Source: Escherichia phage Huey. From it: a DNA stretch of 38,575 nucleotides. Shown piece after piece: positions 37,079-37,579 of the stretch (its first letter is position 1; every line of letters starts with the position of its first letter). The stretch lies in sequence record PQ850609.1; one strand, given 5' to 3'. The notes below the pieces were generated by a model. It was not told where the DNA came from, did no database searches, and worked only from the letters and a program-made list of their open reading frames with translations. The position numbers and the translations under genes were made by a program.

Positions 37079-37579
37079 ATGACCCAGCATATTGGTGCAA
37101 AACTGATTAACGCCTTTCCGATGACGAGACAGGCATATAACGATTTTCGTGGGTGGCAGCTTCCTGCCGGAGAAAACGGCGAGGACGAAGGCTATCTGGT
37201 TGAATATCTGGATGGTGGAAAACCTAACACCGATTGCTTTGATGGCTACGTTAGCTGGAGTCCAAAAGAAGTATTCGAAAAGGCTTATCGTCAGGTATCA
37301 GGGCTAAGTTTCGGCCTTGCCATCGAAGCACTCAAAATGGGTAAGAAAGTTACCCGCGCTGGCTGGAATGGGAAAGGCATGTATCTGCAATTAGTTCAGC
37401 CACCGCAATCAGCCACTCCGAATGATTGGCGCTATGACGTTACATGTGGTGACGAGTATACATTTGTTCCTGGTGTAAAACTTCTTCCCTGGATTGGGAT
37501 GAAGACTGCTGATTGTAAATTTGTTCCGTGGTCGGCGAGTCAGACTGATGTTCTGGCTGAAGACTGGCAAATCATTTAA
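37079..37579 (+). CDS. Late accessory protein with internal duplication; C-terminal half DUF2829-like (tentative)
   Basis: Two ~80-aa halves sharing GW..G..YL and W.(S/P)..(E/D)V..E..(Y/W) patterns; second half KKVTRAGWNGKGMYLQL ... WSASQTDVLAEDWQII. Confidence 0.5.
   Translation: MTQHIGAKLINAFPMTRQAYNDFRGWQLPAGENGEDEGYLVEYLDGGKPNTDCFDGYVSWSPKEVFEKAYRQVSGLSFGLAIEALKMGKKVTRAGWNGKGMYLQLVQPPQSATPNDWRYDVTCGDEYTFVPGVKLLPWIGMKTADCKFVPWSASQTDVLAEDWQII

What the first reader, a model, noticed from the sequence alone, without database searches (positions are those of the whole stretch)
37079..37579. Internally duplicated late protein after the spanins; C-terminal half resembles DUF2829 (Tad2-like anti-defence fold)
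The 166-aa product has two ~80-aa halves with parallel motifs: R-GWQLPAGENGEDEGYLVEY ... SWSPKEVFEKAYRQ and RAGWNGKGMYLQLV ... PWSASQTDVLAEDWQII. The second half matches my recollection of the DUF2829 signature (KKV.R.GWNG.G ... W.PSQ.DLLA.DW), the domain of the Thoeris anti-defence protein Tad2, which sequesters signalling nucleotides. The gene sits in the late accessory slot between Rz/Rz1 and the terminase genes. A tandem-domain version could be a nucleotide sponge with altered stoichiometry or specificity.
Basis: partly seen in the sequence, partly recalled or inferred. Interest (0 to 1): 0.6.

Follow-up and report, generated by a model that had tools for sequence, protein, structure and literature searches.

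The report
Tad2 sponge with unnamed partner domain
This phage gene is not a duplicated domain: it joins a known anti-immunity "sponge" domain (Tad2, which soaks up bacterial alarm nucleotides) to an unnamed 72-residue domain that phages also attach to three other sponge families and also encode on its own.

Summary

The N-terminal half is a separate, strongly conserved domain with no Pfam entry, present in at least 1,540 clusters at 50% identity. It is homologous to the N-terminal domain of "RyR Tad" gp68. A 2026 preprint reports that domain as a domain-swapped dimer of unknown function, inactive alone against type I Thoeris. This domain occurs fused to Tad2, Sequestin, Acb4 and RyR-Tad, and also stands alone. 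The next gene in the window belongs to the Acb4 family, and phage N4 carries the same gene pair.

Verdict: an ordinary Tad2-family anti-signalling gene, already annotated as DUF2829, with an uncharacterised partner domain worth testing.

The parts
37079..37579 (+). Complete gene, 166 aa plus stop codon: a two-domain protein made of the N-terminal domain and a Tad2 domain
   Evidence: ORF list. phrog_872 matches full length at E 1e-66. The closest protein is 98% identical and named 'DUF2829 domain-containing protein'. The AF2 model has mean pLDDT 90.3.
37079..37297 (+). N-terminal domain (aa 1-73): a conserved, unnamed module of the same family as the N-terminal domain of RyR Tad gp68
37307..37576 (+). 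Tad2-like (DUF2829, PF11195) sponge domain, aa 77-166
   Evidence: Pfam E 1.7e-24 over the full profile. PDB sequence hits to MoTad2, SPO1 Tad2, HgmTad2 and SptTad2. Foldseek TMt 0.6-0.83.
37361..37372 (+). G95-W96-N97-G98, aligned with HgmTad2 W21/N22/G23, which contact the gcADPR diphosphate
   Evidence: Alignment to 8kbi. Residue roles come from paper 10.1101/2023.11.15.567273. G95, W96 and N97 are invariant and G98 is at least 90% conserved in the 68-sequence family alignment.
37391..37489 (+). Hypervariable insertion cassette (aa 105-137) between strands b2 and b5 of the Tad2 fold. In other Tad2 proteins this region forms the second ligand pocket (cyclic dinucleotides, cUMP).
   Evidence: Mean identity is 16.8% here against 74-78% in the flanking parts, and cassette length ranges from 11 to 40 aa. 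DNA matches to 45 E. coli prophages stop at nt 298-309 of the gene. pLDDT is lowest here. Pocket roles come from the papers read.
37529..37549 (+). W151-S-A-S154-Q-T156-D157, aligned with HgmTad2 W87/L88/S90/T92/D93 (gcADPR ribose contacts)
   Evidence: Alignment. Residue roles. W151, S154 and D157 are invariant and T156 is at least 90% conserved.
37814..38194 (+). Neighbouring gene of the Acb4 family (N4 Gp49 / Sf6 gene 66, PF13876). It forms a two-gene anti-signalling cluster with the Tad2 gene.
   Evidence: PF13876 E 3.4e-35. Matches Acb4 structure 9e4w at E 0.007. PF13876 is equated with Acb4 in the papers read.
37030..37051 (+). Terminator-like hairpin just upstream of the gene. No + strand promoter was found, so expression is inferred to come from Q-antiterminated late transcription.
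   Evidence: Consensus scan. The late-operon logic is established knowledge of lambdoid phages, and a Q-like antiterminator and late promoter are annotated in Sf6.

Best explanation
The gene encodes a two-domain anti-immune-signalling protein, not a duplicated one.

The C-terminal domain (aa 77-166) is a Tad2-family sponge. By homology it should assemble into a homotetramer whose inter-protomer pockets sequester TIR-derived ADP-ribose signals (3'cADPR / gcADPR or a relative). This keeps Thoeris-type effectors switched off. Its hypervariable b2-b5 insertion lies where other Tad2 proteins form a second pocket for cyclic nucleotides. It is probably the part that sets a second specificity.

The N-terminal domain (aa 1-73) belongs to a large, unnamed phage domain family that also forms the N-terminal domain of RyR Tad gp68. 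There it is a domain-swapped dimer. In this protein it most likely contributes a dimer interface to the sponge assembly. It may also have an activity of its own.

Together with the Acb4-family gene next door, the protein forms a small anti-signalling cluster expressed from the late operon.

Shown here: domain identities, fold, conserved pocket residues, fusion partners and genomic context. Inferred: oligomeric state, ligands and in vivo role.
For: Tad2 half: PF11195 at 86.6 bits over the full profile. PDB sequence hits to four characterised Tad2 proteins. The AF2 model (pLDDT 90.3) superposes on Tad2 crystal structures with TMt up to 0.83. All gcADPR-contact residues reported for HgmTad2 except L88 (S152 here) are present: W96, N97, G98, W151, S154, T156 and D157.

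Insertion: identity 16.8% against about 77% in the flanks. DNA homology breaks at the insertion boundary. The equivalent region binds cyclic dinucleotides or cUMP in HgmTad2, SptTad2 and MoTad2.

N-terminal domain: the gp68 N-terminal domain matches its HMM at E 6e-14 over model positions 2-73. Foldseek against BFVD also finds the Yersinia phage TG1 RyR-domain protein. The preprint reports a domain-swapped dimer.

Fusion partners among the 150 best representatives: Tad2 in 50, Sequestin PF21825 in 38, Acb4 PF13876 in 21, RyR-Tad C-domain in 1, and 17 with the domain alone.

Context: an Acb4-family neighbour. The same pair is adjacent in phage N4. The slot is variable among P22-like phages.
Against: No binding or oligomerisation was tested. 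Tad2 homologues differ widely in ligand (3'cADPR, His-ADPR, N7-cADPR, cyclic dinucleotides, cUMP), so specificity cannot be read from sequence.

S152 replaces the Leu found at the HgmTad2 L88 position and in most family members.

Late-operon placement is unusual for a counter-defence gene that might be expected early.

The dimerisation role of the N-terminal domain is transferred from a divergent member. gp68 lacks R17, R24, W26 and the DGGKPN loop.

A purely architectural role does not explain why the domain is often encoded alone with no sponge gene next to it.
Confidence: 0.78

Rival explanations
1. The N-terminal domain is itself an independent counter-defence module. It would be either a further sponge family for a signal not yet tested, or a protein inhibitor. 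The protein would then be a two-bead multi-target array like the reported Acb4-Tad2 and Acb4-Sequestin fusions.
For: It is fused, in varying order, to four experimentally validated sponge families, and it occurs inside three-bead arrays such as Acb4-N-Sequestin, N-Tad2-Sequestin and N-Sequestin-Acb4. The same 'fused to known sponges' reasoning led to the discovery of Sequestin.

It is frequently a stand-alone protein of about 73 aa with no Pfam-annotated sponge gene adjacent. In Erwinia phage phiEaP8 the stand-alone form sits next to the virion RNA polymerase, the position held by Acb4 plus N-Tad2 in N4 and by N-Tad2 in Bp4.

It is as conserved as the Tad2 ligand-binding core (78% against 74-77%). 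It has many near-invariant aromatic and charged residues: K8, R17, Y20, R24, W26, E32, D36, Y39, Y43, Y57, W60, F66 and Y70. It is small, and the homologous gp68 domain is a homodimer, as sponges are.
Against: The only experiment on a family member found gp68 residues 1-86 inactive against type I Thoeris. The domain is net acidic (11 D+E against 7 K+R), whereas sponge pockets are typically positive. No pocket or oligomer model could be computed here.
Confidence: 0.35
2. The protein is a tandem duplication of the Tad2 domain, giving a sponge with doubled or altered stoichiometry.
For: Only the short look-alike motifs (RGW / AGW, SWSP / PWS) and a loosely parallel helix-strand-strand-helix order in part of each half.
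Confidence: 0.02
3. The protein acts as an AcrIIA7-type anti-CRISPR that binds tracrRNA. Phage Louie's homologue is annotated 'anti-CRISPR protein'.
For: The Tad2 half matches AcrIIA7 structure 9kzr at E 1e-11. A 2026 paper reports tracrRNA binding by pdAcrIIA7. The annotation in PQ850616 reads 'anti-CRISPR protein'.
Against: One group reports that HgmTad2 (the original AcrIIA7) and the other Tad2 homologues it studied showed no Cas9 inhibition in vitro, and that HgmTad2 showed none in vivo. pdAcrIIA7 carries a two-helix head domain unlike the N-terminal domain here. From general knowledge, not tested here: the hosts of this phage group (E. coli, Shigella, Klebsiella) carry type I rather than type II CRISPR-Cas, so there is no tracrRNA to bind.
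Confidence: 0.03

Closest known systems
Tad2 (Thoeris anti-defence 2; Pfam PF11195 / DUF2829): SPO1 Tad2, MoTad2, HgmTad2 (=AcrIIA7), SptTad2
   Same: The C-terminal 90 residues share the fold and the gcADPR-pocket motifs (GWNG; W..SxTD). Identity to the solved proteins is 33-42%. The insertion sits at the b2-b5 position, as in HgmTad2 and SptTad2.
   Different: The characterised Tad2 proteins are single-domain, 88-104 aa in the PDB chains. This protein carries an extra conserved 73-aa N-terminal domain. Its insertion is a family-specific hypervariable cassette unrelated in sequence to those of the solved proteins. Its ligand is unknown.
RyR Tad (gp68 of Pectobacterium phage vB_PatP_CB1; bioRxiv 10.64898/2026.06.04.730250)
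   Same: It has the same N-terminal domain family (HMM E 6e-14) fused to a C-terminal nucleotide sponge. [quoted passage not shown]
   Different: The sponge partner is a RyR Repeat12-like helical domain rather than Tad2. gp68's N-terminal domain is a divergent member that lacks R17, R24, W26 and the DGGKPN loop, which are conserved in the clade to which the window protein belongs.
Phage N4 gp49 (YP_950527) and Bp4 orf32, in the N4-like anti-signalling hotspot
   Same: They have the same architecture of N-terminal domain plus Tad2 (160-163 aa). In N4 the gene is also adjacent to an Acb4-family gene.
   Different: They belong to a different phage family (Schitoviridae) and lie in the middle-gene region next to the virion RNA polymerase rather than the late operon. 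The gene order of the pair is reversed. The N-terminal domain is about 50-54% identical.
Multi-sponge fusions: Acb4-Tad2 of Pasteurella phage Pm86, and Acb4-Sequestin (Ab09 gp59)
   Same: A single polypeptide joins small oligomeric anti-signalling modules. The same partner families appear with the N-terminal domain.
   Different: In those fusions both beads are proven sponges. Here one bead has no demonstrated activity.

Membership tests
Tad2 / DUF2829 (PF11195) sponge family | Sequence match to the family profile above the curated threshold, over the whole domain | tested here: met
   86.6 bits against a cut-off of 25, profile positions 2-73 of 73, protein aa 77-166
Tad2 / DUF2829 (PF11195) sponge family | [quoted passage not shown] | tested here: met
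   AF2 model elements a78-86, b91-93, b102-107, b138-142, b148-150, a155-159, b163-165. Foldseek to 8v3e, 8smf, 8wje, 8kbi and 8wjd gives probability 1.00 and TMt 0.60-0.83.
Tad2 / DUF2829 (PF11195) sponge family | Conserved gcADPR-pocket residues (HgmTad2 W21, N22, G23, W87, L88, S90, T92, D93) | tested here: met
   The aligned residues are W96, N97, G98, W151, S152, S154, T156 and D157. Only L88 differs (Ser here, Leu in most family members).
Tad2 / DUF2829 (PF11195) sponge family | Homotetramer with ligand pockets at protomer interfaces | not testable with these tools
   No multimer prediction or experiment was available.
Tad2 / DUF2829 (PF11195) sponge family | Binds and sequesters an immune signalling nucleotide and relieves the defence in vivo | not testable with these tools
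   Requires biochemistry and phage assays.
Internally duplicated (tandem) Tad2 | The two halves are significantly similar in sequence or profile | tested here: not met
   BLASTP E 0.32. Shuffle test p about 0.25. hhalign probability below 1%. No PF11195 hit on aa 1-76.
Internally duplicated (tandem) Tad2 | The two halves share a fold | tested here: not met
N-terminal domain family of RyR Tad gp68 (unnamed; no Pfam entry) | Significant sequence match to gp68 residues 1-70 | tested here: met
   hmmsearch with the N-domain HMM against gp68 gives 38.2 bits, E 6e-14, model positions 2-73 aligned to gp68 5-69.
N-terminal domain family of RyR Tad gp68 (unnamed; no Pfam entry) | Same fold: a five-stranded sheet completed by a swapped b1 strand in a dimer | tested here: inconclusive
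   The gp68 structure is not in the PDB copy searched. Foldseek against BFVD hits a Yersinia phage TG1 RyR-domain protein, presumably through its N-terminal region, at E 0.011 and TMq 0.68. The monomer model has four strands and two helices. Domain swapping could not be modelled.
Nucleotide-signal sponge (for the N-terminal domain on its own) | Small homo-oligomer with positively charged interfacial pockets that bind a signal | not testable with these tools
   Only indirect evidence exists: the fusion partners and stand-alone forms, one negative assay on a divergent member, and a net acidic composition.
AcrIIA7-type anti-CRISPR | Two-helix head domain preceding the DUF2829 core, and tracrRNA binding | tested here: not met
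   The N-terminal domain here is a b-b-a-b-b-a fold, not a two-helix head. RNA binding was not testable.

The most novel reading that the evidence does not exclude
The 72-residue N-terminal domain is a previously unrecognised family of stand-alone phage counter-defence modules. It would be a sponge or an inhibitor for an immune signal or component not yet assayed. Phages would combine it in modular fashion with Tad2, Sequestin, Acb4 and RyR-Tad to build multi-target anti-signalling proteins. It escaped the published 'fused to known sponges' screen only because it has no Pfam entry.
Probability: 0.33. Interest if true: 0.72.

Novelty: new variant of a known kind. Interest (0 to 1): 0.42.

Why it matters
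The Tad2 assignment itself adds little. Databases already name this protein 'DUF2829 domain-containing', and Pfam calls the domain Tad2-like.

The N-terminal half is the useful result. It belongs to a family of at least 1,540 clusters at 50% identity that has no Pfam or NCBIfam entry. It is fused to four proven sponge families, is often encoded alone, and is present in model phage N4. The papers I could search mention it only in passing, as a 'fold of unknown function'.

If it has its own target, it would add a family to the phage anti-signalling repertoire. It would also give a simple bioinformatic marker for anti-defence loci. If it is only a dimerisation module, it would show how phages tune the assembly of sponges.

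The hypervariable insertion in the Tad2 core is a natural experiment in re-targeting the second ligand pocket, and it is readily testable by cassette swapping.

Tried and rejected
- **N-terminal domain as a divergent Acb4 or Sequestin.** hhalign probability 0.2% for each.
- **N-terminal domain as TadIV-1, Lockin or Tad3-8.** TadIV-1 is T4 vs.3 and is restricted to Straboviridae. Lockin is a beta-rich hexamer that its authors did not find in complete phage genomes, whereas this domain is in 135 such records. The authors who described gp68 knew Tad3 and still called the domain unknown.
- **Was a two-domain N-Tad2 protein among the 18 Tad2 homologues tested in the 2025 sponge-diversity preprint?** The motif strings SWSPK and YLVEY were absent from the three supplementary files held. 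This is not conclusive, because those files may not contain sequences.
- **afdb50 fold search.** The library was not available, so BFVD was used instead.
- **Panoptes/DAC preprints that might mention N4 gp49.** They were not held in full text.
- **Own promoter.** None was found on the + strand in 36400-38575.

Full report
**1. The observation**

The window is a complete P22-like (Lederbergvirus, Sf6/IME10-type) phage genome. It is linearised at the small terminase gene, and terS, terL and portal occupy 1-4035. The region 36400-38575 is 97% identical to phage IME10.

It follows the lambda-type holin, the endolysin (so annotated in the matching IME10 and Sf6 regions), and Rz and Rz1. It is followed by a PF13876 gene (37814-38194) and a DUF2560 gene (38298-38540). 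On the circular map the terminase genes come next.

The slot is variable. Sf6 lacks the gene, and other P22-like phages carry a Rha-family gene there.

**2. The C-terminal half is a Tad2 domain**

- Residues 77-166 match Pfam PF11195 (Tad2-like, formerly DUF2829) at E 1.7e-24, 86.6 bits against a cut-off of 25, over profile positions 2-73 of 73.
- phmmer against PDB sequences finds MoTad2 (9eib, 8v3e), SPO1 Tad2 (8sme, 8wje), HgmTad2/AcrIIA7 (8kbi), SptTad2 (8wjd) and pdAcrIIA7 (9kzr) at E 1e-17 to 1e-11.
- An AlphaFold2 model built on 68 homologues has mean pLDDT 90.3. Foldseek against the PDB returns only Tad2 structures, with probability 1.00 and target-normalised TM 0.60-0.83.
- The residues that contact gcADPR in HgmTad2 are W21, N22, G23, W87, L88, S90, T92 and D93 (paper 10.1101/2023.11.15.567273). 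They align with W96, N97, G98, W151, S152, S154, T156 and D157. Most of these are invariant in the family alignment.

The testable defining features of the Tad2 family are met. Tetramerisation and ligand binding could not be tested.

**3. The two halves are not a duplication**

- BLASTP of the halves gives an 18-residue match at E 0.32.
- A Smith-Waterman shuffle test gives 27 against 24.4 +/- 4.7, and 25% of shuffles reach the observed score.
- hhalign of family profiles gives probabilities of 0.04-0.5%.
- The N-terminal half has no Pfam hit even at E <= 1.
- An HMM of the N-terminal domain never matches a Tad2 half.
- The order of secondary-structure elements differs: b-b-a-b-b-a against a-b-b-[insert]-b-b-a-b.

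**4. What the N-terminal half is**

An exhaustive phmmer search with residues 1-74 finds 1,540 cluster representatives (50% identity clusters) at E < 1e-3, of which 821 are below 1e-10. The domain lies at the N-terminus, the C-terminus or the middle of proteins of 72-354 aa. It has no Pfam or NCBIfam model. The PHROG families that contain it are all of unknown function.

Pfam scanning of the 150 best representatives shows co-occurrence with Tad2 PF11195 (50), crAss001_48 PF21825 (38) and Phage_gp49_66 PF13876 (21).

My own domain mapping of the same 150 representatives gives these architectures:

| Architecture | Count |
|---|---|
| N-Tad2 | 42 |
| N plus an unassigned region | 25 |
| N-Sequestin | 19 |
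| N alone | 17 |
| Acb4-N-Sequestin | 6 |
| Acb4-N | 5 |
| N-Acb4 | 5 |

Three-bead arrays such as N-Tad2-Sequestin, N-Sequestin-Tad2 and N-Sequestin-Acb4 also occur.

A second search returned dozens of complete stand-alone proteins of 72-80 aa on multi-kilobase contigs.

**5. Why those partners matter**

PF13876 is the Acb4 family of 3'3'-cGAMP sponges (bioRxiv 10.1101/2024.12.30.630793). PF21825 is 'Sequestin', a 3'cADPR sponge. Sequestin was discovered precisely because it was the Pfam family most often fused to Tad2 and Acb4 (bioRxiv 10.1101/2025.07.12.664507). That screen used Pfam annotations, so a domain without a Pfam entry could not have been seen.

**6. The one published sighting**

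A June 2026 preprint (10.64898/2026.06.04.730250) describes gp68 of Pectobacterium phage vB_PatP_CB1, named 'RyR Tad'. Its C-terminal RyR-Repeat12-like domain sequesters gcADPR. [quoted passage not shown] Residues 1-86 alone had no anti-type-I-Thoeris activity. In the crystal the domain forms a domain-swapped dimer, with b1 inserted into the partner.

I fetched gp68. It matches my N-domain HMM at 38.2 bits, E 6e-14, over model positions 2-73. One representative, P0130, carries the N-terminal domain fused to a RyR-Tad-like C-domain (E 2e-21). Foldseek against BFVD also links the N-domain model to a Yersinia phage TG1 'Ryanodine receptor Ryr domain-containing protein'.

So the N-terminal half belongs to the gp68-N family. 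gp68 is a divergent member: it lacks R17, R24, W26 and the DGGKPN loop, which are near-invariant in the main clade.

**7. Context elsewhere**

tblastn finds the domain in 135 complete phage records. These include P22-like, N4-like, Vibrio, Pseudomonas, crAss-like and Clostridium phages.

- In phage N4 an Acb4-family gene (RefSeq gp48) is immediately followed by an N-Tad2 gene (gp49, 160 aa), next to the virion RNA polymerase.
- Bp4 has N-Tad2 in that position.
- Erwinia phage phiEaP8 has a stand-alone N-domain gene there.

The 2026 preprint calls this region a hotspot of anti-signalling genes. The window carries the same pair in the opposite order.

Other stand-alone copies lie after an endolysin, beside a small terminase-like gene, or among nucleotide-metabolism genes. 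None has a Pfam-annotated sponge next to it.

**8. A hypervariable cassette inside the Tad2 domain**

Across the 120 closest homologues the N-terminal domain and the two Tad2 core segments are 78%, 77% and 74% identical to the window protein. Residues 105-137 are only 17% identical and range from 11 to 40 aa in length. Several unrelated cassette types occur among proteins whose N-terminal domains are about 90% identical.

At DNA level, 45 of 5,426 complete E. coli genomes match the gene at 92-94%. The listed matches all stop at nt 298-309, and none of the 45 covers 80% of the gene.

This is the b2-b5 insertion. In HgmTad2 and SptTad2 it builds the cyclic-dinucleotide pocket, and the equivalent interface binds cUMP in MoTad2.

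**9. Mechanism**

Best-supported reading (confidence about 0.78): the C-terminal domain is a Tad2 sponge that sequesters a TIR-derived ADP-ribose signal in the conserved pocket, and its variable insertion sets a possible second specificity. The N-terminal domain adds a dimer interface and may have an activity of its own. The gene works alongside the Acb4-family neighbour and is transcribed as part of the Q-antiterminated late operon. A terminator-like hairpin lies upstream and no + strand promoter was found.

Steps shown here: domain identities, fold, pocket residues, fusion partners and context. Steps inferred: oligomeric state, ligands and timing.

The main rival for the N-terminal domain (about 0.35) is that it is an independent counter-defence module. 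In favour: its fusion partners, the stand-alone genes, its positional equivalence in N4-like phages, and conservation equal to the Tad2 core. Against: one negative assay on a divergent member, and a net acidic composition.

The AcrIIA7 anti-CRISPR reading is unlikely (about 0.03). HgmTad2 did not inhibit Cas9 when re-tested. The head domain of pdAcrIIA7 is a different structure. From general knowledge, the hosts of this phage group lack type II CRISPR.

**10. Novelty and score**

The protein is 98% identical to proteins already named 'DUF2829 domain-containing', and Pfam calls the domain Tad2-like, so the main interpretation is known. What is less known is the two-domain variant and the breadth of the N-domain family. 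I rate it a new variant of a known kind with interest 0.42. It is a worthwhile experimental lead rather than a surprise.

Noticed in passing
window 37814-38194 (+): The next gene belongs to the Acb4 family (PF13876, N4 Gp49 / Sf6 gene 66; E 3.4e-35, and 9e4w at E 0.007). The lysis-to-terminase slot therefore holds a two-gene anti-signalling cluster. Phage N4 has the same pair adjacent, in the opposite order (L011:3633-4004 and 4004-4486).
   Followed up: partly
window 37391-37489 (aa 105-137 of the gene): This is a hypervariable insertion cassette inside the Tad2 core. Identity is 17% against about 77% in the flanks, and length ranges from 11 to 40 aa. DNA matches in 45 complete E. coli genomes stop at nt 298-309 of the gene, which suggests cassette exchange at the second ligand pocket.
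   Followed up: partly
L009:3468-3704 (Erwinia phage phiEaP8 gp22); L010:3474-3965 (Bp4 orf32): In N4-like phages the position next to the virion RNA polymerase holds Acb4 plus N-Tad2 in N4, N-Tad2 in Bp4, and the N-terminal domain alone in phiEaP8. This places the stand-alone domain in a reported anti-signalling hotspot.
   Followed up: partly
L016:3001-3225; L012:3001-3222; L004:5001-5222: Stand-alone N-domain genes (73-74 aa) occur just after a small-terminase-like gene, just after an endolysin, and between ribonucleotide reductase and glutaredoxin genes. None has a Pfam-annotated sponge gene adjacent.
   Followed up: no
window 37030-37051 (+): A terminator-like hairpin followed by a T-run lies 28 nt upstream of the gene's start codon, between the Sf6 gene-65-like ORF and the Tad2 gene. 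No + strand sigma-70-like promoter was found between 36400 and 38575.
   Followed up: no
window 36845-36997 (+): A 50-aa ORF with a hydrophobic N-terminus overlaps the end of Rz. It occupies the same position as the equally long Sf6 gene 65. Its function is unknown.
   Followed up: no
window 38298-38540 (+): A DUF2560 gene (PF10834, E 1e-43; HK620 hkbM-like) is the last gene before the terminase. Its function is unknown, and it lies in the same accessory slot as the two sponge-family genes.
   Followed up: no
L003:1882-2352 (Escherichia phage Louie, PQ850616): The homologue is annotated 'anti-CRISPR protein', probably carried over from AcrIIA7. This is probably an over-annotation, because one group could not reproduce Cas9 inhibition by HgmTad2.
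   Followed up: partly
P0155, P0175, P0238 (representatives): Some N-domain proteins carry another unassigned C-terminal region containing a 'DPDYAWGWHCN' motif, and 25 of 150 representatives have an unassigned partner region. These may include further uncharacterised partner modules or frameshifted fragments.
   Followed up: no
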